A stretch of 64,000 nucleotides of DNA, taken from the NCBI GenBank assembly GCA_964404545.1, contig CAYOKN010000001.1, forward strand, positions 9,669 through 73,668, read 5' to 3'. This document shows, in pieces, positions 35,334 through 58,287 of this stretch. A program made the position numbers and the translations under genes. How positions within the stretch are numbered: position 1 is the first letter of the stretch; the number at the start of each line of letters is the position of its first letter. This DNA is from an uncultured Rhodospirillaceae bacterium (GTDB lineage: Bacteria; Pseudomonadota; Alphaproteobacteria; Rhodospirillales; Magnetospirillaceae). Under the pieces are notes generated by a model. It saw nothing but the letters and a program-made list of their open reading frames with translations, was not told the origin of the DNA and searched no databases.

Positions 35334-35361
35334 GGGCCGCACGACATCGGTCATGCGGCCC
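35334..35361. terminator. GC-rich hairpin between convergent genes, possibly a bidirectional terminator
   Basis: GGGCCGCA (35334-35341) pairs perfectly with TGCGGCCC (35354-35361), leaving a 12-nt loop. There is no flanking U-tract, so this is not a canonical intrinsic terminator. Confidence 0.35.
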
Positions 35362-35367
35362 GATCCA

Positions 35368-39393: not shown

Positions 39394-40562
39394 GCCAAGA
39401 TCCCGCTGAGCGCCTCGATCACCCGGGTCTGGTCACTGTCCGACAGCCCCGGATGGAGGGGCAGGGACAGGCAACGCCGATAATAGTCCTCGGCCGCCGG
39501 AAAGGCCTCGGGGCCGGGATGCCAGGGTGCGTGGAAGGGCTGATGGTGGACCGGAATGTAATGGACCTGGCTTCCCACCCCCTTGGCCCGCAAGGCCGCC
39601 ATCACCTGGGCACGCGACACGCCCAGCGCCACGAAGTCCACCTCCACCAGATAAAGGTGATGGCCGGAAATCGCCCTTTGCGCCGGCAGGCTTTGGGGCA
39701 GCCGCACATGCGGCAAGGGCGCGAACGCCTGATCATAACGCTGGGCCAGGGCGCGCCTGCGGCCGATGAAGCCGTCAAGCTTGGCCATCTGGGTCATCCC
39801 CAGGGCTGCCTGGATATCGCAAAGACGATAATTGAAGCCCAGCTCTTGCTGTTCGTAATACCACGGAGCGGTGCCCAACCGGCCTTCCTCGGTCACCAGC
39901 GTCTCGCGCTCGATGCCGTGCGTGCGCAACCGGCGCAAATGACGCGCCAGATCGTCGTCATCGGTCAGGATGGCCCCACCCTCTCCGGTGGTGATTGGCT
40001 TGACCGGATGAAAGGAGAACACGGTCATGTCCGCCAAGCCGCCACACCCCACGGGCCGGCCATCGGGGTGCCGGGCTCCAAGGGCGTGGCTGGCATCCAG
40101 GATGACCCGCCGGTCGCCGGCCAGGGCCCGGATTTCGTCCAGATCCGTGGACAGGCCGCCCATCAGCACGGGAATCACCGCCTTGGCCTCGGGGTGACGC
40201 TCGAGGACGGGCGCCAATGTGGCCGGCGACATGCACAGAGTCTGCGGATCAATGTCCGTGAGGGCGGCCCGCCCGCCCGCATAATGCAGGCAGTTTGCGC
40301 TGGCGACGAAAGTGATGGCCGAGGTGATCCCCACATCGCCCGGGCCGACGCCGGCCGCCAGGGCGGCCAGATGCAAGGCCGCCGTCCCGCTGGAGACGGC
40401 GACGGCATGCCGGGCCCCGGAATAGGACGCCAGCGCCGCCTCGAACCGCTCGACCGCAGGACCCTGGGTCAGGAAATCCCCCCGCAGGACCTCGACCACT
40501 GCGGCGATGTCCGCCTCATCAATGGTCTGCCGGCCATAGCCGAGGAACGGGCGATCGGTCAC
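39384..40562 (-). CDS. pseC: UDP-4-amino-4,6-dideoxy-N-acetyl-beta-L-altrosamine transaminase-like (DegT family)
   Basis: 'LGYGRQTIDEADIAAVVEVLRGDFLTQGPAVERFE' is the PseC-type N-terminus. 'FSFHPVKPITTGEGG' carries the PLP lysine. It sits directly downstream of pseB. Confidence 0.85.
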   Translation of the reverse strand: MTDRPFLGYGRQTIDEADIAAVVEVLRGDFLTQGPAVERFEAALASYSGARHAVAVSSGTAALHLAALAAGVGPGDVGITSAITFVASANCLHYAGGRAALTDIDPQTLCMSPATLAPVLERHPEAKAVIPVLMGGLSTDLDEIRALAGDRRVILDASHALGARHPDGRPVGCGGLADMTVFSFHPVKPITTGEGGAILTDDDDLARHLRRLRTHGIERETLVTEEGRLGTAPWYYEQQELGFNYRLCDIQAALGMTQMAKLDGFIGRRRALAQRYDQAFAPLPHVRLPQSLPAQRAISGHHLYLVEVDFVALGVSRAQVMAALRAKGVGSQVHYIPVHHQPFHAPWHPGPEAFPAAEDYYRRCLSLPLHPGLSDSDQTRVIEALSGILACG

Positions 40563-40567: not shown

Positions 40568-41608
<1,041 letters not shown>

Positions 41609-42895
41609 CTAACGCACCTTGAACAAAGGTTCCAGGGTCTTGCACCGCAGGAGGTCCGCCACCCCGTTTTCGGCAGCCTCAGCCAACATCGGAAACACCT
41701 GGTCATAGACGCCAAGAAGCGTCGCCGCATCCTCGGGCCCATGGGCGTAGCTCATATTGTGCGAGGTAAGCGTCAGGACGCCACGGGCGAAGCATTCCTG
41801 CAGGAACAGGGTCTTCAGCTCCCAGGCCGTGGCCTTCGGCGCATCCTTCAGCAGCAGGAAGCTCCAGGCGGGATGACCGGCGGCCTCGGCAAAGGCGCCC
41901 AGGCCATGGCGCTCGATCCGCTCGGCGGTCCCCTGGAGCACCAGGGTGCCAACGTCAGACAGGGACTGGACCACCGGTTCGCGGGTCAATTTGTTCAATA
42001 CCGCCTTGGCCGCGGCGAGCGACAGCGCCTCGCTGCCCATGGTGAAGGAGAAGAAGATATCCTCCATCACCCGCATCACCTCGGCCCGGCCGACGATGGC
42101 GGCCAGCGGGTAACCATTGGCCAGGCCCTTGCCCAAGGTGGTCAGGTCGGGCGTCACGCCAAACAATTCCTGCGCACCGCCATTGGCATAGCGGAAGCCG
42201 GTGATCATCTCGTCGAAAACCAGAACCGCCCCATGCTTGCGGGTCAGCTCCGCCACCCCCTCGAGAAAGCCGGGCGCCGGCCAGGTGGTATTCATCGGTT
42301 CCAGGACCACCGCGGCGAATTCGCCCGGATGTTGGTTCAGGACGGCCTGCAGAGAGTCCAGATCATTATAGGCGAAGACATGGGTCAGACCGCGCACCGC
42401 TTCGGGAACGCCCCGATGGCGAGCGGTGGTCCCGATATACCAGTCCTGCCAGCCGTGATAGCCGCAGACGGCAATACGCTCACGGCCGGTGAAGGCCCGG
42501 GCGATACGGGCGGCACCCGCCGTTGCATCGGATCCATTCTTGCCGAACCGAACCATCTCGGCGCTGGGCACCAGTTGGCAGATCAGCTCGGCGACCTCGA
42601 TCTCGACGGTGTGGGGAAGCGAAAAGGTCACCCCGTCGGCAAGCTGGGCCGTCACCGCCGCCGTCACATCGGGGTCGTCATACCCCAGCGACACGGACAG
42701 CAGCCCGTTGACGAAATCGAGATATTCATTGCCGTCCACGTCCCAAAGCCGCGCCCCCTTGCCCCGGGCGGCATAAAACGGCGACACGCCGTGCGGAAGC
42801 TGGGTCTTGCTTTTCGAGAAGGTTTGCGTGCCCAGCGGGATCACCCGCTCGGCGCGGGCCAGCAATTCTTCCGACCGCGAATACCGCTCAGACAT
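41609..42895 (-). CDS. Class III PLP aminotransferase (glutamate-1-semialdehyde aminomutase-like)
   Basis: 'RLWDVDGNEYLDFVNGLLSVSLGYDDP', 'FGKNGSDATAGAARIARAFTGR' and 'VLVFDEMITGFR' are class III strings. The glycan-locus context argues against a HemL role. Confidence 0.85.
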   Translation of the reverse strand: MSERYSRSEELLARAERVIPLGTQTFSKSKTQLPHGVSPFYAARGKGARLWDVDGNEYLDFVNGLLSVSLGYDDPDVTAAVTAQLADGVTFSLPHTVEIEVAELICQLVPSAEMVRFGKNGSDATAGAARIARAFTGRERIAVCGYHGWQDWYIGTTARHRGVPEAVRGLTHVFAYNDLDSLQAVLNQHPGEFAAVVLEPMNTTWPAPGFLEGVAELTRKHGAVLVFDEMITGFRYANGGAQELFGVTPDLTTLGKGLANGYPLAAIVGRAEVMRVMEDIFFSFTMGSEALSLAAAKAVLNKLTREPVVQSLSDVGTLVLQGTAERIERHGLGAFAEAAGHPAWSFLLLKDAPKATAWELKTLFLQECFARGVLTLTSHNMSYAHGPEDAATLLGVYDQVFPMLAEAAENGVADLLRCKTLEPLFKVR

Positions 42896-42981: not shown

Positions 42982-43746
42982 ATGATCGTCGCCCTCCTCC
43001 AGGCCCGCTATTCCTCGACCCGGCTTCCCGGCAAGGTGCTGAAGCCCATCCTGGGGCAGCCCATGCTGGCTCGGCAGATCGAACGGCTGCGGCGCGCCCG
43101 TGCCTGCCAGACCCTTGTGGTCGCCACCAGCGACCACCCCGAGGACTCGGCCATCGCCGAGCTGTGCCGCAGCCTGGGCGTGGCCTGCCACCGAGGATCG
43201 CTGACCGACGTGCTGGACCGCATGTACCAGGCAGCCCTGCCCTATTCGCCGAGCCATGTGGTCCGGCTGACCGGCGACTGCCCGCTGGCGGACTGGACGG
43301 TAATCGACCGGGTGGTGGACCTGGCCATGGAGGGCGACTACGACTATGCCAGCAACACCATCCCGCCCACCTTCCCCGACGGCCTGGACGTGGAGGTAAT
43401 GCGGTTCCAGTCCATGCAGACCGCCTGGCGCGAGGCAACCCTGCCCAGCGAGCGCGAGCATGTCTGCCCCTTCCTGCATACGCGCCCCGAACGCTTCAGG
43501 CTGGGCAATCTGAGCAACCCGCAGGACCTTTCGGGCCTGCGCTGGACCGTGGATGAACCCGCCGACTTCGACTTCGTGAGTGCGGTCTATGAGGCCTTGT
43601 ACCCCGGCAATTCCGCCTTCACCACCGCCGACATCCTGGACCTGACGCGCAGGGCCCCCGAGCTGTCCGGCATCAATCAGGGCTATCTGCGCAATGAAGG
43701 CTATCTGAAGTCCCTGGCCGAGGACCAGTCCAAGAAAAACTCCTAG
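42982..43746 (+). CDS. SpsF/FlmC-type cytidylyltransferase (CTP_transf_3-like), candidate CMP-nonulosonate synthetase
   Basis: 'MIVALLQARYSSTRLPGKVLKPILGQPML' and 'RLTGDCPL' are typical of the SpsF/acylneuraminate cytidylyltransferase group. Confidence 0.8.
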   Translation: MIVALLQARYSSTRLPGKVLKPILGQPMLARQIERLRRARACQTLVVATSDHPEDSAIAELCRSLGVACHRGSLTDVLDRMYQAALPYSPSHVVRLTGDCPLADWTVIDRVVDLAMEGDYDYASNTIPPTFPDGLDVEVMRFQSMQTAWREATLPSEREHVCPFLHTRPERFRLGNLSNPQDLSGLRWTVDEPADFDFVSAVYEALYPGNSAFTTADILDLTRRAPELSGINQGYLRNEGYLKSLAEDQSKKNS

Positions 43747-44420
43747 CCGCGGACCTGCCGCAGCACGGCAAACCCTTCGGCGGCGGCCAGTCCATTCTGG
43801 GCCCCACGCAGCCGCGCCAAGGCCTCCACCGCCTGCAGCGACCGGGCGTGGGGAAAGGGCCGCATCTCGCCGGAATAGCACTCCAGCGCCCGCAGCTTGC
43901 GTTCCAGAGTCGTCTCGATGCCGACGAACCGCACTGGCTCGAAGCTCTCGCCCCACTCGGTCGAGGACAGCGTTTCAAACGCATACAGATTGGCGACGGC
44001 CTGCCCCGGCAATGGCCGGCAGGCGGTGCGGACGGCCAGCGCCGTGACCCGATGATCGATGTTCAAGTCGGCCCCATGGTGGGTATAGACCGCGGCGGGC
44101 CGCACCTCGTCCACCACCGCCTCGACCACCTTGACCACATCCAAGAGGTCCAGCGAATCCATGCGATTGTCGGGCAGCCCGCCGAAGCGGGGCGGCAAGG
44201 TGCCGAGGATGGCGGCTGCGGCATTGGCCGCCTTGCGCAGCCGGTCGATCTCGGCGCCATGGACGCCCACATCGCGCTGCGTGCCCCGCGCCGTGGCGCC
44301 TTCGGCCAGGATCAGCACATGCACCTCGTCACCCGCATCGGCATGACGAGCGGCTGCCCCGCCCACTCCCAGCACCTCATCATCCGGATGGGCGGCAACG
44401 ATCAGAATCCTATCCCCCAT
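43743..44420 (-). CDS. PIG-L/LmbE-family N-deacetylase
   Basis: Trimmed to 'MGDRILIVAAHPDDEVLGVGG', which carries the AHPDDE zinc motif. 'HHGADLNIDH' is present. Confidence 0.85.
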   Translation of the reverse strand: MGDRILIVAAHPDDEVLGVGGAAARHADAGDEVHVLILAEGATARGTQRDVGVHGAEIDRLRKAANAAAAILGTLPPRFGGLPDNRMDSLDLLDVVKVVEAVVDEVRPAAVYTHHGADLNIDHRVTALAVRTACRPLPGQAVANLYAFETLSSTEWGESFEPVRFVGIETTLERKLRALECYSGEMRPFPHARSLQAVEALARLRGAQNGLAAAEGFAVLRQVRG

Positions 44421-45189
44421 GGGCCTTCTCCCTAAGCCTTTGCCCGAGCCATTGTGCCGCCTCGTCAGCCAGACCGCGGCTATTCGCGGCAACCAGGCCG
44501 ATCTTCTCCCATCCCCCCTGGAAGCTCCAAGGATGTCCGTCACCGGCGAGCATCAGGCCGCCGGCCGCTTCGAGAACCACCAGGGGCGCGGCGACGTCCC
44601 AGTCGCGGATTTCCACATCCTTCAGGAACAGGTCCGCCGTGCCGTCGGCCACCCGCAGGATCTTCAGCGCAATACTGCCGCTTTCCACATATCCGGTGCA
44701 TCCCAGGGCATCATGAGCCAGCCGTGCGGCTCCCCTCGGCTGCGGATAATTGTCGATCAGGACCCGCCGACCCGGATCGGCCGCCACCCGGATCTCCCGG
44801 CCGTTGCAAATGGCCGGCCCACCCCGGCGGGCGGAAAATGTCAGATCCAGGGCCGGCGCATGCACCACGCCCAGAACCGGCACCCCGGCCTCCATCAGGG
44901 CCGCCTGGGTGACGAACCCGGAGAAGCCGCCCGCATAGCTGGCGGTGCCGTCGATGGGGTCAATCAGCCAATAGCGATCCGGCCGCTGCGCGCCGTGACG
45001 CTCATCCTCCTCGCTCAGAACCGGCAGCCCGCCACCGAGCTGCTGGTTGAGAAACTCATGGGCCCAGCGATCGGCCTGGGTCTTCAGCTGCGCCCCCTGC
45101 CATTCGCCGGACAAGCCCTGAGCCTGGCGGCGCCAGTCCAGCATCCGGGCACCCAATTGCCGAAGACAGTCCTGAGCCTGCTCAAGCAT
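44410..45189 (-). CDS. Inositol-monophosphatase-family phosphatase (IMPase/CysQ-like)
   Basis: Trimmed to 'MLEQAQDCLRQ'. 'YWLIDPIDGTASY' and 'IRDWDVAAPLVVLEAAGG' are the two IMPase family motifs. Confidence 0.85.
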   Translation of the reverse strand: MLEQAQDCLRQLGARMLDWRRQAQGLSGEWQGAQLKTQADRWAHEFLNQQLGGGLPVLSEEDERHGAQRPDRYWLIDPIDGTASYAGGFSGFVTQAALMEAGVPVLGVVHAPALDLTFSARRGGPAICNGREIRVAADPGRRVLIDNYPQPRGAARLAHDALGCTGYVESGSIALKILRVADGTADLFLKDVEIRDWDVAAPLVVLEAAGGLMLAGDGHPWSFQGGWEKIGLVAANSRGLADEAAQWLGQRLREKAHGG

Positions 45190-46120
45190 GGTGCAGCTCC
45201 CTGATGCAGGCCAGTTCGGCAGCCCGCATCCGCGCATCCGGGGGCGGGCAGGGGTCGCCCGTGACCCGGGCAAGCCAGTCCAGGCGGGGCGTCGGCGCGT
45301 GGCCCACGGCATCGAAGATATTGGCCGCAGAGAGCGGAAGAGCCGACTCGCGCCAAAGGGGTTCGGCCTCCAGATAGGCGGGCAGGACTGCCTCCAGCCG
45401 GTGGCGGGCAACGGGCACAAGATGGACAGGCCGTCCCTCGGCCTGGGCGATGTCCTGAAGAATCCGCGAGACCGGCGCCCCCCCGTCCGGGAGCCCTTCC
45501 CACACGGGGCGGCTCGCCGCCTTGGGCAAGAGCCGGACCAACGCCTCGGCCACATCCTCGCTCCAGACCACCTGGGCGGGATTGTCGCCCCCATCCACGG
45601 CAAGGAGCCCTCCCCCTGCCCGGATCCTGCTGCGGTAAAAATCCAGCCGGCCCGTATGGTCCCGGGCGCCCCAGATGACCGGCAGGCGCACCACGACGCC
45701 GCCGGCGGCCAATGTGGCCGCCTCGGCCTGGGCCTTGCCGTCCAGATAGCGGCACGTCAGGTCCATCATGGTGGGGGGCTGGGTCGCCGGCCCCTGGACC
45801 GGCCCATCCACCGGAGTATCGGGATAACGCCGGCTGATCCAGGCCGATGACACCAGGATCAACAGCCCGGTCCGGACGGAGGCGGCGGCGAGCTGGCCCA
45901 CCGCCTTGCCATCATAGGCGATGAAATCCAGAACCACGTCGAACTGCCGGCCTGACAAACGGGCCAGTGCCTCGATACGCTCACCCGTCACCGCCTCGAC
46001 ACCGGCCGGCGCGCTGCCGGCCCGGCGCGAGGCGACGGTCACGGCCGCCCCGGCGCGAACCAGGGCCCGGACCACCGCCAACCCGGCGAAGCGCGTACCG
46101 CCAAGGACCAGGACCTTCAT
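45182..46120 (-). CDS. NAD(P)-dependent oxidoreductase (atypical/extended SDR)
   Basis: 'MKVLVLGGTRFAGLAVVRALVRAG' is a Rossmann motif. ATGA overlap with the NeuB-2 stop at 46117-46120. Confidence 0.75.
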   Translation of the reverse strand: MKVLVLGGTRFAGLAVVRALVRAGAAVTVASRRAGSAPAGVEAVTGERIEALARLSGRQFDVVLDFIAYDGKAVGQLAAASVRTGLLILVSSAWISRRYPDTPVDGPVQGPATQPPTMMDLTCRYLDGKAQAEAATLAAGGVVVRLPVIWGARDHTGRLDFYRSRIRAGGGLLAVDGGDNPAQVVWSEDVAEALVRLLPKAASRPVWEGLPDGGAPVSRILQDIAQAEGRPVHLVPVARHRLEAVLPAYLEAEPLWRESALPLSAANIFDAVGHAPTPRLDWLARVTGDPCPPPDARMRAAELACIRELHHA

Positions 46121-47187
46121 CGGCCGCCCAGATCCTCCCAGCTCAGGGGCGTCTCGGCCGCCACCGGACGAACCAGGGTCCGCCCCAGGACGGCGGCCAG
46201 ATGGCGCGGCTCGATGCCGGTGCCGGGGCGGGCCAGATACAAATCGTCGGCCGTCAGGGCATGGCCCGCGGGCAGACCGCTTCGGGCAATGATGCTCTTC
46301 ACATAATTCGACCGGTTCACCGTCTCACGCGGGCTGGGCGGCGTGAAGCCCGGCTGTCCCAGCGCCAGGGCGGCGGATTTCAGGTTGGCGACATAATCCC
46401 GCACCATCTCGGGCTCCAGCGCGAACGGATGGTCAGGGCCGTTCTGGGTGCGATCCAGCGTCACATGCTTTTCAAACATCACCGCACCCAGGGCCAGGGC
46501 CGCCACGGCAGTGGTCACGTCGGTGGTGTGATCGGAAAATCCGATGGAGACACCGGACCGGTCGGTCAGGAAGGGGATGGTGCGCAGCCGCATCTCGGCA
46601 GGTTCGGGCGGATAGACGGCGATGCAGTGAAAGGCGCCGACCCCGGGCTTGTGCGGCTTCAGGACGGACAAAGCGGCATCGATGTCCTCGAGACCGGCCA
46701 TGCCGAAGGAGATCAGGATCGGCGCCTCCACCTGATTCACCAGCGCCGCGAGAAACGGCAGATTGGTATGGTCCATGGAGGCAATCTTGACCAGATCCAG
46801 CTCGATCTCGCGGGCCCAGGCCAGGCCGTTCCAACCATGGATGGTGGCGCCGAAATCCAGGCCGAGAGAGTGGCAGAGCTCCTTCAGCTCTGGCATCCAG
46901 GCCTTGGGGGTCTGCAGATGGCGGGCGAACATCTCCTGGGCGGAGATGTCGCCATAGAGGCCGTCGAGGCCATAGTCCCGTGCCCGGATGCTGCCGCAGA
47001 CGATCTCGTCCGGCTCATAGATCTGGAACTTCGCGCAATGGCAGCCGGCCTCGGCCACCATGCGCACCAGAGCCTTGGCGGTCTCGATATCGCGATTATG
47101 GTTGGTGCCGATCTCGGCGATGACATAGGGCTCCAGGCCAGCGCCGATGCGCGGGCGGCCACGGACGGAAAGGGGAGCGACGGTCAT
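46117..47187 (-). CDS. Second NeuB-family (ulosonic/nonulosonic acid) synthase with SAF-like C-terminus
   Basis: Trimmed to 'MTVAPLSVRG...PYVIAEIGTNHNRDIETAKALVRMVAEAGCHCAKFQIY'. 'KIASMDHTN' and 'GFSDHT' are present. It is clearly divergent from the copy at 28838-29854. Confidence 0.85.
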   Translation of the reverse strand: MTVAPLSVRGRPRIGAGLEPYVIAEIGTNHNRDIETAKALVRMVAEAGCHCAKFQIYEPDEIVCGSIRARDYGLDGLYGDISAQEMFARHLQTPKAWMPELKELCHSLGLDFGATIHGWNGLAWAREIELDLVKIASMDHTNLPFLAALVNQVEAPILISFGMAGLEDIDAALSVLKPHKPGVGAFHCIAVYPPEPAEMRLRTIPFLTDRSGVSIGFSDHTTDVTTAVAALALGAVMFEKHVTLDRTQNGPDHPFALEPEMVRDYVANLKSAALALGQPGFTPPSPRETVNRSNYVKSIIARSGLPAGHALTADDLYLARPGTGIEPRHLAAVLGRTLVRPVAAETPLSWEDLGGR

Positions 47188-47204
47188 TGGCGCGATGACT
47201 CCGG

Positions 47205-48362
47205 TCAGAGGTCGGACAGCACGGTCAGACGGATGGAATGGGGAACCCCCAGCTCTCCCCGCAGCCGGGCCTCGATGGCGGGAAAATGATGGGCAGAACA
47301 GACGGCCAGAACGTCCACCGGATCCTCGGCCAACCCGGCCGGATCGCGAATGGGCGAAAGCCCCGGCAACCAGCATTGCCCGTGCTTGTAGGGGTCGCCA
47401 TCATAGAACCGGACCTGGCCAGCCACCCCGGCCAGAACCGCGAGTCCATAGCCGCCGGCATAGAGCCCAAGGCTCTGGCCCGCCTCGACCACCCGGCGCA
47501 GGGCCGCTGTCTGGGCGGCCAGCCGGGCCCGGGCGCGCAAGGCAAAATCGGCCAGCGCGGCCTCTTCGGCAGCCACCGCCTGGCCATCGGCCGCGGTGAC
47601 CGGGGCGCCGGGCTGGTGCCGTCCCCACAGGAACAGCTCGTTGCCCGCCGAGGTGGGCGCCGCGTCCACGGCGGCGAAACCCTGGTTCCGCAGGAACCGG
47701 GTGCCATTCAGCGCCGTGAAATAGTTCACATGCTCGTGGCACAGGCCGTCGATCAGGCCGCCATCGAAATAGAGCTGGCTGTTGGGCACGCTATGGAAAA
47801 ACAATCCGCCGGGCACGAGACAGGACCGGCAGGCCGCCAGGAAGCCCGGCAGGTCGACGATATGTTCCAGGCAGCCATAGGAGAAGATGCAGTCGAACGG
47901 AGCGTCGAACAGCCCCGGAGCCAAAGGTTGGCGCACCACCCGGATGCCGTAGGTCCGCTCGGCCTCGTCCGCCTGCGGCCCGATCTCGCATCCCACGACC
48001 TCGGCGCCCAGTTGCCGGACGGCGTCCAGCAGCGCTCCGCTGCCGCATCCCACCTCCAGGAAGCGGCGCCCGGCAAGGTCGGCGCCGAATACGGCCACCA
48101 GCTTGGTCAGCATCTCGGTCAAACGCTGCGCCGCCAAGGGACTGCGCCCCAACGGGGTCGACAGCATGCTGCCGGCGCCATACGCCTTGTCCAAGGCCGC
48201 GCTGATGACATCGGTGACTTCAAGCCGAGGCAGAGCCAGGCCATGGTCCACGGCCAGGACCAGGGGCAGATCGGCCGGCAAGCCCTTGTCGGACCCGGGC
48301 GGAATGACGCCGGTGAAGAAGGGAAAACGGTCGAACGACAGCCGCGCCGGCTCAGTCCCCAT
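47205..48362 (-). CDS. SAM-dependent methyltransferase with C-terminal sugar C-methyltransferase-type domain (TylC3-like architecture)
   Basis: 'FLEVGCGSGALLDAV' is SAM motif I. The C-terminal 'LGLYAGGYGLAVLAG...FYDGDPYKHGQCWLPGLSPIRDP' resembles the C-methyltransferase accessory domain. Confidence 0.7.
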   Translation of the reverse strand: MGTEPARLSFDRFPFFTGVIPPGSDKGLPADLPLVLAVDHGLALPRLEVTDVISAALDKAYGAGSMLSTPLGRSPLAAQRLTEMLTKLVAVFGADLAGRRFLEVGCGSGALLDAVRQLGAEVVGCEIGPQADEAERTYGIRVVRQPLAPGLFDAPFDCIFSYGCLEHIVDLPGFLAACRSCLVPGGLFFHSVPNSQLYFDGGLIDGLCHEHVNYFTALNGTRFLRNQGFAAVDAAPTSAGNELFLWGRHQPGAPVTAADGQAVAAEEAALADFALRARARLAAQTAALRRVVEAGQSLGLYAGGYGLAVLAGVAGQVRFYDGDPYKHGQCWLPGLSPIRDPAGLAEDPVDVLAVCSAHHFPAIEARLRGELGVPHSIRLTVLSDL

Positions 48363-49299
48363 GGTCGACGACCTCCAGATGATTGACCCAGCGGCGGGTC
48401 AGGCTGACCTGCCGGAAAGGCAGAAAGCCTTGGGCTGGCGCCGTGGACCGGCCCAGAAAGACGGCGATGGGATCAATACCCGCCGCCACGCCGACACAAA
48501 AGGTCGTGGAAATACGGGGATTGATCTCGAACGGCACGCACACGCCGCTTTCGGTGCGGATGAGCTGGATATTATAGCATCCGGCCGCCGGAACCGCGGC
48601 ATGGATCGCTGCGCAGGCGTCGATCACCCGTTGGTCTTGGTCCGTTCGGGCCTTCACCGTGATCCCGCGCTTCTGTCCGACCTTCACCGGCACCACGGCC
48701 TGCAGCCGGCTCGAGGCATCGGCGGCCATCATGACCGTGTATTCCTGGCCAACCAGCAGATCCTGCACCAGGATGCGGTCCGCCGCCTCGCCCTGCATCA
48801 GGCGATAGCCGTCCATTTGCGCCGCCGACTCCAGGACCAGAATGCCGCGCGAGCCTCGGCCCGAGCGAGGCTTCGAGAAACAGGGAGGCACCACCGCACC
48901 GGGATCGGCCAGGGTTCCGCTCCGGGGAGCCGGCAAACCCGTCTCGGCCAGCAGCCGCGCCATGCGCAGCTTGTCGAGCATCATGGCCACATAGTCTGCG
49001 TGGGGCAGCATGAGTCGGGTCGGCGCCAAGGCCTCCACCGAGGCCGCGAGGAGCGGCAATTCCTCGTCCACGGACGGGATCAGCACATCCACCTGCAGCC
49101 GTCGGCACAAGCCGCCTACCGCCTCGGCAAAGCCCGGGGCGAGGGCCATGGGGATGGCATGCCGGCGATCGGCAGGCACCAGCGGATCGATCGCGGCGGG
49201 GTCGGCGTCCGCGAAATGAATGTCGTACCGATCCCCCAGAAGACGCCAGATTGCCTCGGTCCCTGCGCCGCCTCCGCCCGTGAAAAGCAGCCGGTCCAT
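48352..49299 (-). CDS. ATP-grasp-fold ligase
   Basis: 315 aa. 'CFSKPRSGRGSRGILVL' and 'LVQDLLVGQEYTVMM...CYNIQLI...PFEINPR' fit the ATP-grasp B/C-domain pattern. Confidence 0.75.
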   Translation of the reverse strand: MDRLLFTGGGGAGTEAIWRLLGDRYDIHFADADPAAIDPLVPADRRHAIPMALAPGFAEAVGGLCRRLQVDVLIPSVDEELPLLAASVEALAPTRLMLPHADYVAMMLDKLRMARLLAETGLPAPRSGTLADPGAVVPPCFSKPRSGRGSRGILVLESAAQMDGYRLMQGEAADRILVQDLLVGQEYTVMMAADASSRLQAVVPVKVGQKRGITVKARTDQDQRVIDACAAIHAAVPAAGCYNIQLIRTESGVCVPFEINPRISTTFCVGVAAGIDPIAVFLGRSTAPAQGFLPFRQVSLTRRWVNHLEVVDHGD

Positions 49300-49302
49300 G
49301 CT

Positions 49303-51039
49303 CTAGCGCGCCGCCAGACGATAGCCGCCGATATACAGAACCTCGATATTGCCGCGCAGCAGGCTGCCGATGGCATCCGCCGGCGAGCAGACGATGGGTT
49401 CCTCGTGCTGGTTGAAGGAGGTGTTGATGAGGGCCTTGTCGCCCGAGCGGTCGCAATAGCGCCGCACCACGCGGTAATAATCGCCGTTCCGCTCTTCCGT
49501 CACGGTCTGCGGCCGGGCCGTGCCGTCGATATGCACCACGGCCGGGTGCCGCTCGGCGAAAGCGGGGGTGCAGGCATAGGTCCGGGTCATGAACGGCGAA
49601 CACAAGTCACCGGCCTGCCAACCGATGAAGCTTTCGGCCGCGAACTCCTCGGGAACCACGGGGGCGAAGGGCATGAACTCGGTGCGATGCAGCTTCTTGT
49701 TCAGCCAGTCATTCATGCTGGCGTCGCGGGTATGCACCAGGATCGAGCGGGCGCCCAGTGCCCGCGGGCCGAATTCCATGCGACCGTCGAAGAAGCCGAC
49801 AATGCGCTGTTCCACCAGATCTTCCACCGCGGCCCCCACCCAATCGGCGGGCCGGTGCACGTCCAGAGCGTCGCCCGCGCGCACGACCTCGGCGGCCACC
49901 TCGTCCACTTCGAAGGACGGCCCCAGATAGATCCCGGGGAACTGAACCTTGGTGCGCCCCTCGGACTCCGCCATGTGACAGCAGGCCGCACCCACGGCCA
50001 AGCCGCCATCGCCCATATGCGGGAACACGAAGACCCGGCGCACGCCGGGGATCTCGGCCACCAGCTGATTAACCCGCACATTGGCGCAAACGCCGCCGGC
50101 CAGGCAGACATCAACCGGCCCACCGCCCCGCTTGCCCACCCAATGCGCCACATAGGCCGTCACCAGGCGTTCGGTATGGGCCTGTACGCCGGCCGCGATG
50201 TCCTCGCGGCTGAACCGCGACAGCTCGGCTCGCAGGTCGTCGCCCTGATTGGTATAGAAGGGCTTGTAGAAGCCCAGATTGGCAACGAACCGGCCCTCTT
50301 CCCATTTGATCATGCGCTCGAACAGGGAACGGGTGGCCTCGGGGTCGCCATGGGCGGCCAAGCCGGTGACCTTGCCCTCGTGGCGGTGCGGCGTGAAGCC
50401 CAGAAAATGGGTAATCTGCCCATAGAGAAAGCCCAGGCTGTCGAAGGACAACATGTAGTCGAGCTCGGTCAGGCCACCATCGATCGACGCGTGAGAAACC
50501 GTGGAAGATTTCAGGTCGCCACGCCCGTCGAAGGTGAATACCAACGCTTGGTCGAAGGGAGAGCAGGCAAAGGCTCCCCAGGCATGGGAGGCATGATGAT
50601 CGAGAAAGAAGATCCGCTCGGACGGCATGCCCAGGGCGGCCATTTCCGCCTCGAACTGAGCCCGGGTTTCACTGTCACGATCGAACTCGGTGCTGACGCG
50701 CTGGCGAATGATCTCACCACAGCCAGGGTCCCGTGCCATGGCCAGGGTGACGCGCTCGGTCAGGCGCTTGGCATAGTCGGCATAGTCGGTCCGCCGGCCG
50801 TACCAGCCATAGGCGACAGCCCCGACATCCTGGAGCGTCAAGCCATGACGATCCAGCACATGGGCCAAGGCCTTGTGCGGGAATCCCTTCTGCATCTTGA
50901 CCCGTGACAGCCGCTCTTCATTGATCGCATCCAGCAGCTGGCCGTCGCGGAACAGGCAGACCCCGCTATCCTCGTCGTTGTGGATGCCGATGATGTACAT
51001 AAAGGGGCTGTCCTCGAAGTTCCGGATCGGATGATCCAT
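49303..51039 (-). CDS. NodU/CmcH-family carbamoyltransferase
   Basis: 'MYIIGIHNDEDSGVCLFRDGQLLDAINEERLSRVK' is a NodU-type N-terminus, and 'NTSFNQHEEPIVCSPADA' a NodU-type C-terminus. The start is the ATG at 51039 (1-nt overlap with the pseG stop) or the ATG at 51000. Confidence 0.88.
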   Translation of the reverse strand: MDHPIRNFEDSPFMYIIGIHNDEDSGVCLFRDGQLLDAINEERLSRVKMQKGFPHKALAHVLDRHGLTLQDVGAVAYGWYGRRTDYADYAKRLTERVTLAMARDPGCGEIIRQRVSTEFDRDSETRAQFEAEMAALGMPSERIFFLDHHASHAWGAFACSPFDQALVFTFDGRGDLKSSTVSHASIDGGLTELDYMLSFDSLGFLYGQITHFLGFTPHRHEGKVTGLAAHGDPEATRSLFERMIKWEEGRFVANLGFYKPFYTNQGDDLRAELSRFSREDIAAGVQAHTERLVTAYVAHWVGKRGGGPVDVCLAGGVCANVRVNQLVAEIPGVRRVFVFPHMGDGGLAVGAACCHMAESEGRTKVQFPGIYLGPSFEVDEVAAEVVRAGDALDVHRPADWVGAAVEDLVEQRIVGFFDGRMEFGPRALGARSILVHTRDASMNDWLNKKLHRTEFMPFAPVVPEEFAAESFIGWQAGDLCSPFMTRTYACTPAFAERHPAVVHIDGTARPQTVTEERNGDYYRVVRRYCDRSGDKALINTSFNQHEEPIVCSPADAIGSLLRGNIEVLYIGGYRLAAR

Positions 51040-52076
51040 CAGAAAAGGCCAAGGCGGCCGATTGCCGCCAGGACGCGGTGGACGCCGCGCCCGTCACACA
51101 GGTCCGACGCGGCCTGCGCCATGGCATACCGCCATTTGGGGTCCTGGGCAAGCGTCGACAGGCCTTGGGCCACGGCCTCGACCGACAGCTCGTCATGGCG
51201 GCCCAGGACCAAGGCCGCGCCGGCCTGGTCCAGGCACCGGATCCCGCCAAGCTGGTTATCCGCAACGCTGATCACGGCGGTCGGCAGTCCCAGGCAGCAG
51301 CGCTCCCACGAGGTCGATCCGCCTGCGCCCACGGCCAGGTCCGCCTCGGCCATGCGCTCGGCCACCCGGCCATCATCGAGATGAAGGTCGACCGGCAGGT
51401 CGAGACCCGGCAGCATGGCCCGAACCCGTTCGAGATGCGGCGCCCCCGACCCCAGAAGAACCGCCACCCTCTGCAGATCCGGCCAGCGGCAGTGCTCCAG
51501 CGCGCGCAGCACCTTTTCCGTCTGGTTGCTGGGATCGGTCAATCCCATGCTGACCAGGACCTGTCGCGCCGCGCCAGGGGTCCGGCGCCGCAGGGTGGCC
51601 TCGCGCAGGTCCCGGAAGTCTCGCCGCAAGAGGGCGTGAGACGGTCCCGAGAGGACCGTGGCGGTCTTGGGCACCAGCCCGGCATAGGCCTGCGCGCCAT
51701 CCAGCCGGTTCTGGTCCAACAGCAGGTCGCAATGGTGGGGGCGGTCGGCAAGGTCATCCACCACCAGGATGGTCCCCGCCCAAGGAGCGCAAGCCCTTTC
51801 AAAGGCCGCGTCCAGGCCATAATGATCGACCACCAGCAGGTCGCATCCGCCCGCGCCCAGATCGCGCATGTGGTCGGGCCGGATGGCGTCCAGTTCCACC
51901 ACGCGGTGCCGCCCCAGCGCAGGAACCACGGCCAGGGCGCCCGGAGCGGAAATGAAAATGCAGGACCAGCCGTCCGCCGCAAGCTGGTCGGCCAGCACAA
52001 GGCAGCGCATGGCGTGGCCGCCGCCGATGGCCGGAGTGGCATCCAGGCGAAAGATTGCCTGCTTGCGGTCGGTCAT
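51039..52076 (-). CDS. pseG: UDP-2,4-diacetamido-2,4,6-trideoxy-beta-L-altropyranose hydrolase
   Basis: 'AIFRLDATPAIGGGHAMRCLVLADQL' and 'ADLAVGAGGSTSWERCCLGLPT' fit the PseG (GT28-like hydrolase) pattern. Confidence 0.85.
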   Translation of the reverse strand: MTDRKQAIFRLDATPAIGGGHAMRCLVLADQLAADGWSCIFISAPGALAVVPALGRHRVVELDAIRPDHMRDLGAGGCDLLVVDHYGLDAAFERACAPWAGTILVVDDLADRPHHCDLLLDQNRLDGAQAYAGLVPKTATVLSGPSHALLRRDFRDLREATLRRRTPGAARQVLVSMGLTDPSNQTEKVLRALEHCRWPDLQRVAVLLGSGAPHLERVRAMLPGLDLPVDLHLDDGRVAERMAEADLAVGAGGSTSWERCCLGLPTAVISVADNQLGGIRCLDQAGAALVLGRHDELSVEAVAQGLSTLAQDPKWRYAMAQAASDLCDGRGVHRVLAAIGRLGLF

Positions 52077-52114: not shown

Positions 52115-52378
52115 ATGCCGCCTGGCTGGATCACCCTGGCCGATGCCCAAGCCCGCCATCCGAACCTGCTCGCCGACCTGGCCGCCGGACAATGCGAAGC
52201 AGCCTTGCTGCTGGAAAACGGCGCCCTGGAACCCCTGCCACCCCGCTTCTGGAGTGGCCCGAAGGCGGCAGCGGCCCTGCACAGCGGGCGGGCCTCCACC
52301 CTGGCCCGCTTTGCCGTCTCGGCACTCGACCTGCGGCTGGTGGAAGGTCCGGTGCTGGTTCGCGATCACCCGGAATAA
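52115..52378 (+). CDS. Small hypothetical protein (87 aa)
   Basis: It exactly fills an otherwise unexplained 290-bp gap. Reading the codons by eye, most third positions are G/C. GGAG lies 7 nt before the ATG. The composition is Ala/Leu-rich, unlike the Arg/Gly-rich shadow frames. No family recognised. Confidence 0.45.
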   Translation: MPPGWITLADAQARHPNLLADLAAGQCEAALLLENGALEPLPPRFWSGPKAAAALHSGRASTLARFAVSALDLRLVEGPVLVRDHPE

Positions 52379-54516: not shown

Positions 54517-54614
54517 CACCCTTCCCACCTCGCCCGGCGGGTCAGCGACAAAGTATTGCGTTTGGATCGACAAACGCAAGAATGATGCTCCCTTCTCGGC
54601 TTTCGGAGGTTAGC
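54517..54614. promoter_or_regulatory. Divergent promoter region (radical SAM gene leftward, FkbM methyltransferase rightward)
   Basis: 98-bp gap. A strong RBS (GGAGG plus 5 nt) precedes the GTG at 54615. Confidence 0.45.
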
Positions 54615-58284: not shown

Positions 58285-58287
58285 GGG

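What the first reader, a model, noticed from the sequence alone, without database searches (positions are those of the whole stretch)
43743..52076. Eight-gene operon around a second NeuB-type synthase predicts a heavily decorated, non-canonical ulosonic acid
Seen: pseG, a NodU/CmcH carbamoyltransferase, an ATP-grasp ligase, a C-methyltransferase-type enzyme, a second NeuB-like synthase, an SDR, an IMPase-family phosphatase and a PIG-L deacetylase lie in order. All are on the minus strand with 1-11-nt overlaps or a 3-17-nt gap. Established: NeuB enzymes condense PEP with a hexosamine-type aldehyde. Synthases that use phosphorylated substrates (Kdo8P, Neu5Ac-9-P, Kdn-9-P) need a dedicated phosphatase. 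NodU-type enzymes O-carbamoylate sugars. ATP-grasp ligases form amide bonds from carboxylates. Inference: the IMPase-like gene next to NeuB-2 points to a phosphorylated intermediate. The product is predicted to be C-methylated, carbamoylated and amide-linked to an amine or amino acid. I have not seen this combination described for Pse, Leg or Neu derivatives.
Basis: partly seen in the sequence, partly recalled or inferred. Interest (0 to 1): 0.65.

Follow-up and report, generated by a model that had tools for sequence, protein, structure and literature searches.

The report
Pseudaminic-type sugar operon with uncharacterised tailoring cassette
The eight genes are real and tightly packed, and they most likely decorate a pseudaminic-acid-type nine-carbon surface sugar using a four-enzyme cassette (ATP-grasp ligase, reductase, phosphatase, deacetylase) that is common in environmental bacteria and that I found described nowhere.

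Summary
Observation confirmed: eight minus-strand genes (52076-43743) with the stated families and the stated 1-11-nt overlaps or 3- and 17-nt gaps. Interpretation partly supported.

NeuB-2 belongs to a populated, unnamed NeuB clade. It falls below the NCBIfam cut-offs for both PseI and NeuB, and in my tree it is sister to PseI. PseB, PseC, PseG and a cytidylyltransferase flank it, so the backbone is most likely a 9-deoxy, Pse-type nonulosonic acid.

The IMPase is not specific to NeuB-2. In 80 metagenome loci found with the IMPase, ATP-grasp, an SDR, IMPase and PIG-L travel together next to three different synthase clades, including canonical PseI. Fusion proteins join the ATP-grasp to PseG, to GNAT or formyltransferase domains, to the SDR and to the methyltransferase.

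My best reading is N-deacetylation followed by ATP-dependent re-acylation, with the SDR and the phosphatase finishing the new acyl group. A phosphorylated synthase substrate is less likely.

The carbamoyltransferase is absent from the cassette loci, but its orthologs recur in other NulO clusters. C-methylation by the class I methyltransferase is only weakly supported; the neighbouring B12-radical-SAM enzyme is a better candidate. I found no paper describing the cassette.

The parts
51039..52076 (-). PseG-type UDP-sugar hydrolase, 345 aa. It stands alone here. In other loci it is fused to a GNAT or formyltransferase domain.
   Evidence: TIGR03590 242.7 bits, above the 153.55 cut-off. Fused forms in L001, L005, L009, L012 and L014. 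Triple fusion PseG-Fmt-ATP-grasp in P0364.
49303..51039 (-). NodU/CmcH/TobZ-family carbamoyltransferase, 578 aa. This is an accessory gene, not part of the conserved cassette.
   Evidence: Carbam_trans_N 133 bits and Carbam_trans_C 182 bits. Full-length matches to GdmN, NovN and TobZ. Absent from all 38 long IMPase-anchored loci. Orthologs at 59-63% identity lie beside PIG-L and NeuB genes in other NulO clusters, once fused to a GNAT.
48352..49299 (-). ATP-grasp enzyme, 315 aa, related to PRK12767 and PDB 2pn1. It is the core of the cassette and a putative amide ligase.
   Evidence: Family hits. Invariant K...KPxxGRGSRG and E-x-N motifs. Found within 4.8 kb upstream of the IMPase in 40 of 41 loci. 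Fusions to PseG, Fmt, GNAT, SDR and the methyltransferase.
47205..48362 (-). Class I SAM methyltransferase with an extra C-terminal domain, 385 aa. Frequent accessory gene.
   Evidence: Methyltransf_23 70.9 bits. Best PDB matches are the sugar 3-C-methyltransferases TcaB9, KijD1 and TylC3, at only 35 bits. No Methyltransf_13 or Methyltransf_14 domain. Present in 7 of the first 14 loci and 5 of 38 long metagenome loci. Fused to the ATP-grasp in P0491.
46117..47187 (-). NeuB-2, 356 aa: a NeuB-family PEP-condensing synthase of an unnamed clade sister to PseI.
   Evidence: NeuB plus SAF domains. Below both equivalog cut-offs. 120 homologs at 54-66% identity, none with a specific name. NJ tree. Asp replaces NmNeuB Glu134 in the clade-invariant motif KIASMDH.
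45182..46120 (-). Divergent extended-SDR oxidoreductase (SDRx), 312 aa.
   Evidence: Weak Epimerase hit. Invariant GGTRFxG, Ser91 and Tyr125-x3-Lys129, a conserved SRR after strand 2, and a GDHTxR motif. An SDR of this lineage or the SDRy lineage lies directly upstream of the IMPase in 48 of 58 loci. ATP-grasp-SDRy fusions P0468 and P0482.
44410..45189 (-). IMPase/CysQ-superfamily phosphatase, 259 aa.
   Evidence: Inositol_P 122.7 bits. Nearest NCBIfam models are CysQ at 108 bits and HisN at 84 bits, both below cut-off. Catalytic motifs invariant. At least 539 relatives found in the metagenome scan.
43743..44420 (-). PIG-L/LmbE-family N-deacetylase, 225 aa.
   Evidence: PIG-L 84.5 bits. BshB1, BshB2 and MshB are the nearest named models. 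The AHPDDE motif is in the translation. Directly downstream of the IMPase in 33 of 59 loci and elsewhere in the locus in 14 more.
42982..43746 (+). CTP_transf_3 cytidylyltransferase, convergent and overlapping the 3' end of PIG-L by 4 nt. Likely the CMP-activating enzyme.
   Evidence: CTP_transf_3 106 bits. PseF model only 29 bits against a cut-off of 206. Homologs recur in the related loci.
41609..42895 (-). Class III (GSA-aminomutase-like) aminotransferase. Recurrent neighbour, fused to the cytidylyltransferase in other genomes.
   Evidence: NF004856 399.6 bits against a cut-off of 486. Fusions of 681-686 aa in L001 and L106.
40568..41560 (-). PseB, UDP-GlcNAc 4,6-dehydratase (inverting).
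   Evidence: TIGR03589 524.1 bits, above the 407.75 cut-off.
39384..40562 (-). PseC aminotransferase.
   Evidence: TIGR03588 462.3 bits, above the 423.5 cut-off.
38419..39393 (-). GFO/IDH/MocA oxidoreductase. Recurrent neighbour.
   Evidence: IolG-like, 88 bits. Homologs in L001, L007 and L014 and, by clustering with the L014 gene, in L009 and L010.
52366..54579 (-). B12-binding radical-SAM enzyme related to the KedN5 family of C-methyltransferases, directly upstream (289-nt gap). Possible source of any C-methylation.
   Evidence: NF033712 165.9 bits, far below its 700 cut-off, plus Radical_SAM and B12-binding domains. Homologs sit beside PseG or the ATP-grasp in L055, L058 and L077.

Best explanation
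The eight genes form one transcription unit inside a large O-antigen or capsule-type locus. With the adjacent PseB, PseC and cytidylyltransferase genes, the unit makes a CMP-activated nonulosonic acid of the pseudaminic type (5,7-diamino, 9-deoxy).

**Backbone.** PseB, PseC and PseG deliver a 2,4-diamino-2,4,6-trideoxy-hexose. NeuB-2 is a deep sister of PseI and condenses that sugar with PEP.

**Tailoring cassette.** ATP-grasp, SDR, IMPase and PIG-L form a portable cassette that works alongside different Pse-type synthases.
- PIG-L removes the N-acetyl group inherited from UDP-GlcNAc, which becomes N5 of the nonulosonic acid.
- The ATP-grasp ligates another carboxylic acid to the freed amine.
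- The SDR and the IMPase-type phosphatase then finish that acyl group. One possibility is that a phosphorylated three-carbon keto or hydroxy acid becomes a glyceroyl- or lactoyl-type amide.
- The logic resembles mycothiol and bacillithiol synthesis: phosphatase, LmbE-type deacetylase, ATP-dependent ligase.

**Lineage-specific extras.** The class I methyltransferase methylates the product. The carbamoyltransferase adds a carbamoyl group. It sits where other genomes carry a PseH-type domain fused to PseG, so its target could be a hydroxyl or, less conventionally, the 4-amino group.

**Shown:** gene families, packing, conserved synteny, gene fusions and clade placement.
**Inferred:** every substrate, the order of steps and the identity of the acyl group.
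For: - Families and tight packing.
- PseB, PseC and PseG score above their equivalog cut-offs.
- The NeuB-2 clade is monophyletic (bootstrap 83-96) and sister to PGAP-named PseI (96), apart from the NeuB/LegI type (100).
- The module ATP-grasp-(MT)-NeuB2-SDR-IMPase-(PIG-L), with PseG, PseB and PseC nearby, occurs in Verrucomicrobia, Hyphomicrobiales, Sulfuritalea, Cyanobacteria, Chromatiaceae, Rhodospirillaceae, an Osedax symbiont and Prochlorococcus.
- IMPase-anchored metagenome loci: ATP-grasp upstream in 40/41, SDR directly upstream in 48/58, a NeuB-family gene upstream in 42/49, PIG-L in the locus in 47/59.
- The same cassette sits next to canonical PseI, a third synthase class and the NeuB-2 clade.
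- Fusion proteins: PseG-Fmt-ATP-grasp, Fmt-ATP-grasp, GNAT-ATP-grasp, ATP-grasp-SDR and ATP-grasp-MT.
- PIG-L pairs with formyltransferase-like genes in other NulO clusters.
- A 2026 preprint links a deacetylase plus a formyltransferase in a Leg-type cluster to CMP-NulOs with a free or formylated amine (10.64898/2026.04.20.719630).
- Catalytic motifs of the IMPase, SDR and ATP-grasp are invariant.
Against: - No enzyme of the cassette has been characterised, and no product structure is known for any organism that carries it.
- The roles I give the SDR and the IMPase are conjecture. Nothing identifies the acyl donor.
- The ATP-grasp's nearest sequence relatives are the uncharacterised 2pn1 protein, carbamoyl-phosphate synthetase domains, PurK and biotin carboxylase. 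Those enzymes activate bicarbonate, not organic acids.
- ATP-grasp-SDR fusions would also fit reduction of a carboxylate through an acyl phosphate.
- No equivalog-level PseH, PseI or PseF is present, so the stereochemistry of the backbone is unproven.
- L007 and L002 carry the module with no PseB or PseG within 10 kb.
- The tree is neighbour-joining with few reference sequences.
Confidence: 0.45

Rival explanations
1. NeuB-2 condenses PEP with a phosphorylated aldose, and the IMPase-family enzyme removes the phosphate from the resulting ulosonate phosphate. This would parallel NANS/NANP, Kdn-9-P synthase with its phosphatase, and KdsA/KdsC. The SDR would act on the phosphorylated intermediate.
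For: - The order NeuB-SDR-IMPase, with overlapping stop and start codons, is conserved.
- L002 and L007 carry the module with no PseB or PseG within 10 kb.
- NeuB-2 has Asp at the NmNeuB Glu134 position. A published survey reports the same change in eukaryotic and archaeal synthases (PMC8208679, abstract). From my own knowledge, eukaryotic NanS uses ManNAc-6-P.
Against: - The cassette also accompanies a canonical PseI (455.8 bits against a cut-off of 340), and there the ATP-grasp lies between the synthase and SDR-IMPase.
- NeuB-2-clade genes occur without the IMPase (L004, L008, L016).
- PseB, PseC and PseG are syntenic in most loci, which implies a 6-deoxy aldose with no terminal hydroxyl to phosphorylate.
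- No sugar kinase is present in the operon.
- The Asp substitution also occurs in NeuB-2-clade genes that lack the cassette, and most cassette-linked PseI keep Glu.
Confidence: 0.12
2. The ATP-grasp and the SDR together reduce a carboxylate: the ATP-grasp makes an acyl phosphate and the SDR reduces it to an aldehyde or alcohol. The substrate would be a uronic-acid-type or other acid intermediate. The IMPase would hydrolyse a phosphate ester made along the way.
For: - ATP-grasp-SDR fusion proteins P0468 and P0482. P0468 also hits NAD_binding_4, the thioester-reductase type.
- SDRy proteins hit the thioester-reductase domain model weakly.
- L007 links the module to WbpB/WbpD/WbpE-like genes. From my own knowledge, those enzymes act on UDP-uronic acids.
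Against: - I know of no precedent for an ATP-grasp/SDR carboxylate reductase.
- The model gives PIG-L no role, yet PIG-L is almost always present.
- Fusions of the ATP-grasp to PseH-type GNAT or formyltransferase domains point to chemistry on the sugar amines.
Confidence: 0.1
3. The ATP-grasp does not acylate a sugar amine with an organic acid. Instead it either amidates the C1 carboxylate of the nonulosonic acid or N-carboxylates the amine freed by PIG-L. N-carboxylation would use bicarbonate chemistry like PurK or carbamoyl-phosphate synthetase, and the carbamate would then be methylated or cyclised.
For: - The closest PDB relatives after 2pn1 are carbamoyl-phosphate synthetase domains, PurK and biotin carboxylase.
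- AsnB-like amidotransferases, which also activate carboxylates, take the ATP-grasp's position in L004 and L016 and lie next to NeuB-1 in the window.
- ATP-grasp-methyltransferase fusion P0491.
Against: - The similarity is at the level of the shared fold (55 bits or less).
- From my own knowledge, neither C1-amidated nor N-carboxylated nonulosonic acids have been reported.
- The model does not explain the SDR or the IMPase.
Confidence: 0.1
4. The IMPase-family protein is a CysQ-like 3'(2'),5'-bisphosphate nucleotidase. It would clear pAp produced by a sulfotransferase or a phosphopantetheinyl transferase, and so would take no direct part in sugar chemistry.
For: - The best NCBIfam model is CysQ, at 108 bits.
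- The window holds an FkbH-domain gene. From my own knowledge, FkbH enzymes load a carrier protein, and that carrier would need phosphopantetheinylation.
Against: - The CysQ score is far below its cut-off of 228.8.
- No sulfotransferase or PAPS genes were seen in the window or in the cassette loci.
- Strict, translationally coupled linkage to an SDR, ATP-grasp and PIG-L in loci that lack FkbH or carrier-protein genes.
Confidence: 0.05

Closest known systems
Pseudaminic acid pathway (PseB, PseC, PseH, PseG, PseI, PseF) of Campylobacter and Helicobacter
   Same: PseB, PseC and PseG score above their equivalog cut-offs. A NeuB-family synthase sister to PseI and a CTP_transf_3 cytidylyltransferase are present.
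   Different: The synthase, the cytidylyltransferase and any N-acetyltransferase all fail the equivalog cut-offs. Five further enzymes are interleaved: carbamoyltransferase, ATP-grasp, methyltransferase, SDR and IMPase, with PIG-L at the end.
Mycothiol and bacillithiol biosynthesis (MshA2 phosphatase, MshB/BshB LmbE-type deacetylase, MshC/BshC ATP-dependent ligase)
   Same: The same combination of activities acts on a GlcNAc-derived N-acetyl group: a phosphatase, a PIG-L/LmbE deacetylase and an ATP-dependent amide ligase. The nearest named models for the window's PIG-L are BshB1, BshB2 and MshB.
   Different: The ligase here is an ATP-grasp, not a Cys-tRNA-synthetase-like enzyme. The substrate is a nucleotide sugar or a nonulosonate. 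The resemblance is one of logic only, drawn from established knowledge of those pathways, and was not tested.
Deacetylase plus formyltransferase tailoring of legionaminic-type NulOs (Ca. Kuenenia stuttgartiensis, SugarBase preprint 10.64898/2026.04.20.719630)
   Same: A deacetylase gene lies inside a NulO cluster and is tied to replacement of an N-acetyl group at or before the CMP-sugar level. The same pairing of PIG-L with a formyltransferase appears next to NeuB genes in Halorussus and in the contexts of the carbamoyltransferase orthologs.
   Different: Here the partner of PIG-L is an ATP-grasp with an SDR and a phosphatase, not a formyltransferase.
Sugar-phosphate-using NeuB homologs with a dedicated phosphatase (animal NANS/NANP; Bacteroides Kdn-9-P synthase and phosphatase)
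   Same: A NeuB-family synthase is genetically linked to a phosphatase. Asp sits at the Glu134-equivalent position, as reported for eukaryotic synthases (PMC8208679).
   Different: From my own knowledge, those phosphatases belong to the HAD superfamily; this one is IMPase-type. The upstream enzymes make a 6-deoxy sugar. The phosphatase also accompanies canonical PseI.
Shewanella oneidensis sfmABCDE flagellin-modification operon (PMC3765264)
   Same: It combines a NeuB-domain protein, a reductase, a roughly 390-aa SAM methyltransferase and an ATP-grasp, and it modifies a nonulosonic-acid glycan.
   Different: SfmA is a short, 290-aa NeuB-domain protein. The operon has a TPP enzyme and an ATP-grasp_4-type ligase, and no IMPase or PIG-L. 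Sequence relatedness to the window's genes was not tested.
TobZ/NovN/GdmN/NodU O-carbamoyltransferases
   Same: Same two-domain architecture, with full-length alignments at 190-232 bits.
   Different: The context is a NulO cluster. The gene occupies the place of the PseH-type domain fused to PseG elsewhere, and it is fused to a GNAT in P0129. The acceptor atom is unknown.

Membership tests
Pseudaminic acid biosynthesis pathway | PseB, inverting UDP-GlcNAc 4,6-dehydratase | tested here: met
   TIGR03589 524.1 bits, above the 407.75 cut-off, at 40568-41560.
Pseudaminic acid biosynthesis pathway | PseC aminotransferase | tested here: met
   TIGR03588 462.3 bits, above the 423.5 cut-off, at 39384-40562.
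Pseudaminic acid biosynthesis pathway | PseG UDP-sugar hydrolase | tested here: met
   TIGR03590 242.7 bits, above the 153.55 cut-off.
Pseudaminic acid biosynthesis pathway | PseH N-acetyltransferase | tested here: not met
   None in the operon. The window's PseG lacks the GNAT or Fmt domain fused to it in other loci. The GNAT at 36028-36723 matches no NCBIfam model at E<=1e-5 and hits only the generic Acetyltransf_3.
Pseudaminic acid biosynthesis pathway | PseI synthase at equivalog level | tested here: not met
   NeuB-2 scores 212.9 on TIGR03586 against a cut-off of 340.25. It is a sister clade at 32-35% identity.
Pseudaminic acid biosynthesis pathway | PseF cytidylyltransferase at equivalog level | tested here: not met
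   TIGR03584 29.3 bits against a cut-off of 205.7. The generic CTP_transf_3 domain is present at 106 bits.
Pseudaminic acid biosynthesis pathway | Product has L-glycero-L-manno stereochemistry | not testable with these tools
   Needs NMR, or comparison of DMB derivatives with standards.
NeuB family (PEP-condensing ulosonate synthases) | NeuB TIM-barrel domain plus SAF domain, with catalytic and metal-binding residues | tested here: met
   PF03102 192 bits and PF08666 44 bits. The equivalents of Glu25, Lys53, Gln55, the KIxS lysine and the SDH/EKH histidines are invariant in the clade. The Glu134 position is Asp.
Sugar-phosphate-using synthase with dedicated phosphatase (NANS/NANP, Kdn9PS, KdsA/KdsC) | The aldose substrate keeps a phosphorylatable terminal hydroxyl, so no 4,6-dehydratase acts upstream | tested here: not met
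   PseB and PseC are adjacent in the window and syntenic in many related loci.
Sugar-phosphate-using synthase with dedicated phosphatase (NANS/NANP, Kdn9PS, KdsA/KdsC) | The phosphatase is linked specifically to that synthase type | tested here: not met
   The IMPase lies beside three synthase clades, including canonical PseI. NeuB-2-clade genes occur without it.
Sugar-phosphate-using synthase with dedicated phosphatase (NANS/NANP, Kdn9PS, KdsA/KdsC) | Phylogenetic placement of NeuB-2 with NANS or Kdn-9-P synthases | not tested
NodU/CmcH/TobZ carbamoyltransferases | Kae1-like N-terminal domain plus YrdC-like C-terminal domain | tested here: met
   PF02543 133 bits and PF16861 182 bits. Full-length PDB matches. 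It is not NodU itself: 139.6 bits against a cut-off of 1000.
TcaB9/TylC3-type sugar C-methyltransferases | N-terminal zinc domain (PF08421) and C-terminal Methyltransf_14 domain (PF08484) | tested here: not met
   Neither domain was reported at E<=0.01. The first 90 residues contain no Cys. There is only a 35-bit similarity to TcaB9 over residues 101-357.
LmbE/PIG-L deacetylases | PIG-L domain with the metal-binding AHPDD motif | tested here: met
   PF02585 84.5 bits, above the 28.2 cut-off. AAHPDDE is in the translation.
IMPase/FIG superfamily phosphatases | Inositol_P domain with DPIDGT and WD(x)A motifs | tested here: met
   PF00459 122.7 bits. The motifs are invariant in 10 orthologs. It is not CysQ, HisN or SuhB at equivalog level.

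The most novel reading that the evidence does not exclude
ATP-grasp, SDR, IMPase and PIG-L form a previously undescribed, widespread enzymatic route. The route swaps the N5-acetyl group of pseudaminic-type sugars for an acyl group built from a phosphorylated metabolite. In this organism the route is combined with carbamoylation and (C- or O-) methylation. The carbamoyl group may go on the 4-amino/N7 position in place of acetylation. The result would be a nonulosonic acid class not yet seen in any glycan structure.
Probability: 0.3. Interest if true: 0.7.

Novelty: new variant of a known kind. Interest (0 to 1): 0.55.

Why it matters
Nonulosonic acids cap the surface glycans of many bacteria. 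Published work ties their N-acyl decorations to charge, immune recognition and, possibly, phage susceptibility. The enzymes that install anything other than acetyl, acetimidoyl or formyl groups are largely unknown (PMC5378307; 10.64898/2026.04.20.719630).

This locus points to a compact cassette that is abundant in the environment. At least 539 metagenome matches were found, and the ATP-grasp family has 143 representatives of 50%-identity clusters at E<=1e-30. The cassette could account for some of the unannotated CMP-sugars now being detected by mass spectrometry.

It also offers five small soluble enzymes that can be tested in vitro on commercially accessible Pse-pathway intermediates.

Finally, it corrects a tempting inference. 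A phosphatase next to a NeuB homolog does not by itself mean the synthase uses a phosphorylated substrate.

Tried and rejected
- **Literature.** Five searches combined nonulosonic, pseudaminic or legionaminic acid with ATP-grasp, inositol monophosphatase, carbamoyltransferase, or PIG-L/LmbE. None found a paper describing the cassette. A sixth search with generic terms was swamped by unrelated papers. The Iyer/Aravind amidoligase paper is not held.
- **Source organism.** The exact NeuB-2 protein is not on record. The RmlA in the window is at best 78% identical to a Rhodospirillaceae MAG, so this is not Magnetospirillum gryphiswaldense.
- **Plasmid collection.** It holds no ortholog of NeuB-2, the IMPase or the ATP-grasp; all hits are below 37% identity.
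- **'NeuB builds the acyl chain'.** I considered NeuB making a 3-deoxy acid that is reduced, dephosphorylated and then ligated. I rejected this because L069 and similar loci carry a canonical PseI as the only synthase, with ATP-grasp, SDR and IMPase contiguous beside it.
- **Asp-for-Glu134 as a marker of the cassette.** Rejected. NeuB-2-clade genes without the cassette have Asp, and most cassette-linked PseI keep Glu.
- **Promoter and terminator scan.** It gave nothing above chance.
- **Structure prediction.** Not run.
- **SDR-IMPase fusion in L056.** A possible fusion could not be separated from a frameshift, so I did not use it.

Full report
**1. The observation**

The window is about 66% G+C and is filled with surface-glycan genes. 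On the minus strand between 52076 and 43743 lie eight ORFs with these families:
- PseG: TIGR03590 242.7 bits against a cut-off of 153.6.
- A two-domain NodU/CmcH/TobZ-type carbamoyltransferase.
- An ATP-grasp enzyme.
- A class I SAM methyltransferase (Methyltransf_23).
- A NeuB+SAF synthase (NeuB-2).
- A divergent SDR.
- An IMPase-family phosphatase.
- A PIG-L deacetylase.

With the most plausible start codons, the junctions are a 1-nt overlap, a 3-nt gap, an 11-nt overlap, a 17-nt gap, then 4-, 8- and 11-nt overlaps. A simple promoter and terminator scan found nothing above chance inside the block. The single-operon reading therefore rests on the packing alone.

**2. Surroundings**

Directly downstream and convergent is a CTP_transf_3 cytidylyltransferase (42982-43746). 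Then come, on the minus strand:
- a class III aminotransferase,
- PseB (524 bits, cut-off 408),
- PseC (462 bits, cut-off 424),
- a GFO/IDH/MocA oxidoreductase.

Directly upstream is a B12-binding radical-SAM enzyme whose best NCBIfam match is the KedN5 family of C-methyltransferases, far below that model's cut-off.

The rest of the window holds:
- a second NeuB homolog (NeuB-1, 28838-29854), in a lower-GC stretch with AsnB-like, WbuX-amidotransferase, formyltransferase and Cj1295-like genes;
- an FkbH-domain gene and CDP-hexose genes;
- Wzy_C-type and GT4 genes, RmlA and RmlB;
- a KdsB-like gene with an HMGL-like pair, and an MsbA-like ABC exporter.

No flagellar or maf genes were seen. The locus therefore looks like an O-antigen or capsule region. 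The best named relative of its RmlA is a Rhodospirillaceae MAG at 78% identity.

**3. What NeuB-2 is**

NeuB-2 scores 235 bits on the NeuB/LegI equivalog model (cut-off 400) and 213 on the PseI model (cut-off 340). Against solved structures it is about equally distant from B. subtilis SpsE, a PseI and N. meningitidis NeuB.

It is not an orphan. More than 1300 homologs passed E<=1e-20, and the best 120 are 54-66% identical. Those that carry an organism name come from MAGs of Verrucomicrobia, Desulfobulbaceae, Syntrophaceae, Alphaproteobacteria, Acidobacteria and an Osedax symbiont. None has a specific name.

I built a neighbour-joining tree with PGAP-named PseI and NeuB references taken from plasmid records.
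- The NeuB-2 clade is monophyletic (bootstrap 83-96).
- It is sister to PseI (96).
- It is separate from the NeuB/LegI type (100).
- NeuB-1 joins the NeuB/LegI type weakly (62).

NeuB-2 does not cluster tightly with ordinary PseI (32-35% identity), but PseI is its nearest named relative. The catalytic set is intact except that Asp replaces NmNeuB Glu134, in the clade-invariant motif KIASMDH.

**4. The module is conserved**

I looked at contexts of NeuB-2 relatives and searched them with the window's proteins. They show ATP-grasp - (methyltransferase) - NeuB2 - SDR - IMPase - (PIG-L), usually preceded by PseG and with PseB and PseC nearby.

This arrangement occurs in Verrucomicrobia, Hyphomicrobiales, Sulfuritalea, a cyanobacterium, Chromatiaceae, Rhodospirillaceae, an Osedax symbiont and a Prochlorococcus single-cell genome. 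In those loci PseG is fused to a GNAT or to a formyltransferase domain, that is, to a PseH-type step. The window's PseG is not fused.

**5. The IMPase is tied to a cassette, not to NeuB-2**

A metagenome scan with an IMPase alignment found at least 539 relatives and returned 80 loci. Counting only loci with enough flanking sequence:

| Neighbour of the IMPase | Loci |
|---|---|
| SDR directly upstream | 48 of 58 |
| NeuB-family gene within 3.6 kb upstream | 42 of 49 |
| ATP-grasp within 4.8 kb upstream | 40 of 41 |
| PIG-L directly downstream | 33 of 59 |
| PIG-L elsewhere in the locus | 14 of 59 |

The SDR comes in two remotely related lineages: the window's type (SDRx) and a more canonical GalE/RmlD-like type (SDRy).

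The adjacent synthase falls into three classes:
- the NeuB-2 clade, in 9 loci;
- canonical-type PseI, in 13 loci, where L069 scores 455.8 on the PseI model against a cut-off of 340;
- a third class, in 33 loci.

In several PseI loci the order is PseI - ATP-grasp - SDR - IMPase - PIG-L. Conversely, NeuB-2-clade genes occur with an AsnB-like gene and no IMPase (L004, L016) or with neither (L008).

**6. Gene fusions**

An exhaustive search with the ATP-grasp found 143 representatives of 50%-identity clusters at E<=1e-30. Among the best hits are these fusion proteins:
- PseG-formyltransferase-ATP-grasp (P0364),
- formyltransferase-ATP-grasp (P0377),
- GNAT-ATP-grasp (P0378, P0381, P0488),
- ATP-grasp-SDRy (P0468, P0482),
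- ATP-grasp fused to a homolog of the window's methyltransferase (P0491, 43% identity).

So the ATP-grasp, the SDR, the methyltransferase, PseG and the N4-acylating domain belong to one pathway. They probably handle the same UDP-linked or closely related intermediates.

**7. Most likely mechanism**

In other NulO clusters PIG-L is paired with formyltransferase-like genes. A 2026 preprint ties a deacetylase plus a formyltransferase in a Leg-type cluster to CMP-NulOs carrying a free or formylated amine.

By analogy, I propose:
- PIG-L removes the N-acetyl group inherited from UDP-GlcNAc.
- The ATP-grasp installs another acyl group on the freed amine.
- The SDR and the phosphatase, both with intact catalytic motifs, process that acyl group.

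A phosphorylated C3 keto or hydroxy acid is my guess for the donor, and nothing more than a guess. The combination of activities parallels mycothiol and bacillithiol synthesis, based on established knowledge of those pathways.

The roles of the SDR and the IMPase are the weakest part. Section 5 gives the evidence against the last.

**8. The accessories**

*Carbamoyltransferase.* It aligns full length with O-carbamoyltransferases. It is absent from all 38 long cassette loci. Its orthologs (59-63% identity) nevertheless sit in other NulO clusters next to PIG-L, formyltransferase-like and NeuB genes, once fused to a GNAT. A carbamoylated NulO is therefore a recurrent prediction, not a quirk of this genome. 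In the window the gene starts within the PseG stop codon, at the place where other genomes carry the fused N-acyltransferase domain. N-carbamoylation of the 4-amino group therefore cannot be excluded.

*Methyltransferase.* Its best structural relatives are the sugar 3-C-methyltransferases TcaB9, KijD1 and TylC3, but only at 35 bits, and it lacks their zinc domain and their Methyltransf_14 domain. If the sugar is C-methylated, the B12-radical-SAM enzyme upstream is the likelier agent. Homologs of that enzyme recur beside PseG or the ATP-grasp. The same preprint reports unassigned CMP-linked ulosonic acids with an elongated backbone in Magnetospirillum. That shows such products exist, although the window does not come from that organism.

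**9. Novelty and verdict**

I found no paper describing the cassette or a carbamoylated NulO. One review-style statement says NulO-modifying enzymes are poorly known.

The backbone pathway is a known kind. The tailoring cassette and its combination with carbamoylation are undescribed variants. It is right that this is a non-canonical, decorated ulosonic acid. It is probably wrong about why the phosphatase is there, and it overstates the case for C-methylation.

Interest is moderate to good for glycobiology. The cassette is abundant and compact, and the predictions can be tested directly by mass spectrometry and with purified enzymes.

Noticed in passing
window 22000-36000: A stretch of lower G+C (0.52-0.61, against about 0.66 elsewhere) holds a second NulO sub-cluster. 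It contains NeuB-1 (28838-29854, below both the NeuB and PseI cut-offs), an AsnB-like amidotransferase, a WbuX N-acetyl-sugar amidotransferase, a formyltransferase, methyltransferases, a PFTS-motif protein and a B12-radical-SAM gene. It may have been acquired separately.
   Followed up: partly
window 5932-8157, 11541-13526, 26975-28828; L004 8244-10004; L016 1123-2883: The window has three AsnB-like amidotransferases. In L004 and L016 an AsnB-like gene lies between PseG(-GNAT) and a NeuB-2-clade gene, where other loci have the ATP-grasp. In the window one lies next to NeuB-1. This may be an alternative carboxylate-activating tailoring step.
   Followed up: no
window 38419-39393, 41609-42895, 42982-43746; L001 2987-5032; L106 19308-21368: A GFO/IDH/MocA oxidoreductase, a class III aminotransferase and a CTP_transf_3 cytidylyltransferase recur together. 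The last two are a single 681-686-aa fusion in L001 and L106. This hints at an extra oxidation and transamination at the free or CMP-linked ulosonate stage, which could give a third amino group.
   Followed up: partly
window 46117-47187 (NeuB-2) and 28838-29854 (NeuB-1): Both NeuB homologs carry Asp where N. meningitidis NeuB has the catalytic Glu134 (KIASMDH and KIASGDL). The PGAP-named PseI and NeuB references keep Glu. A published survey reports the same change in archaeal and eukaryotic synthases.
   Followed up: partly
window 34024-35319 and 20122-22632: A DUF4910/DUF2172/HTH_47 protein and an FkbH-domain protein are present. I recall C. jejuni Cj1295 as being of the same kind as the first, but did not check this with the tools. 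Together they suggest a separate glyceryl-carrier route to N-glyceroyl-type decorations in the same locus.
   Followed up: no
window 56506-60774: A KdsB-like cytidylyltransferase (above the PRK13368 cut-off), an HMGL-like aldolase/synthase of 583 aa and a LIC13510-family protein sit together. They may form a third acid-sugar pathway unrelated to the finding.
   Followed up: no
window 43743-43746: The 3' ends of the PIG-L gene (minus strand) and the cytidylyltransferase gene (plus strand) overlap convergently by 4 nt.
   Followed up: no
L007 4954-13690; L002 4108-10967: Two alphaproteobacterial loci carry ATP-grasp/NeuB2/SDR/IMPase with no PseB or PseG within 10 kb. L007 has WbpB/WbpD/WbpE-like genes instead, and L002 has an OafA-like acyltransferase. 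Both share a conserved protein of about 260 aa with no Pfam domain, located after the IMPase.
   Followed up: partly
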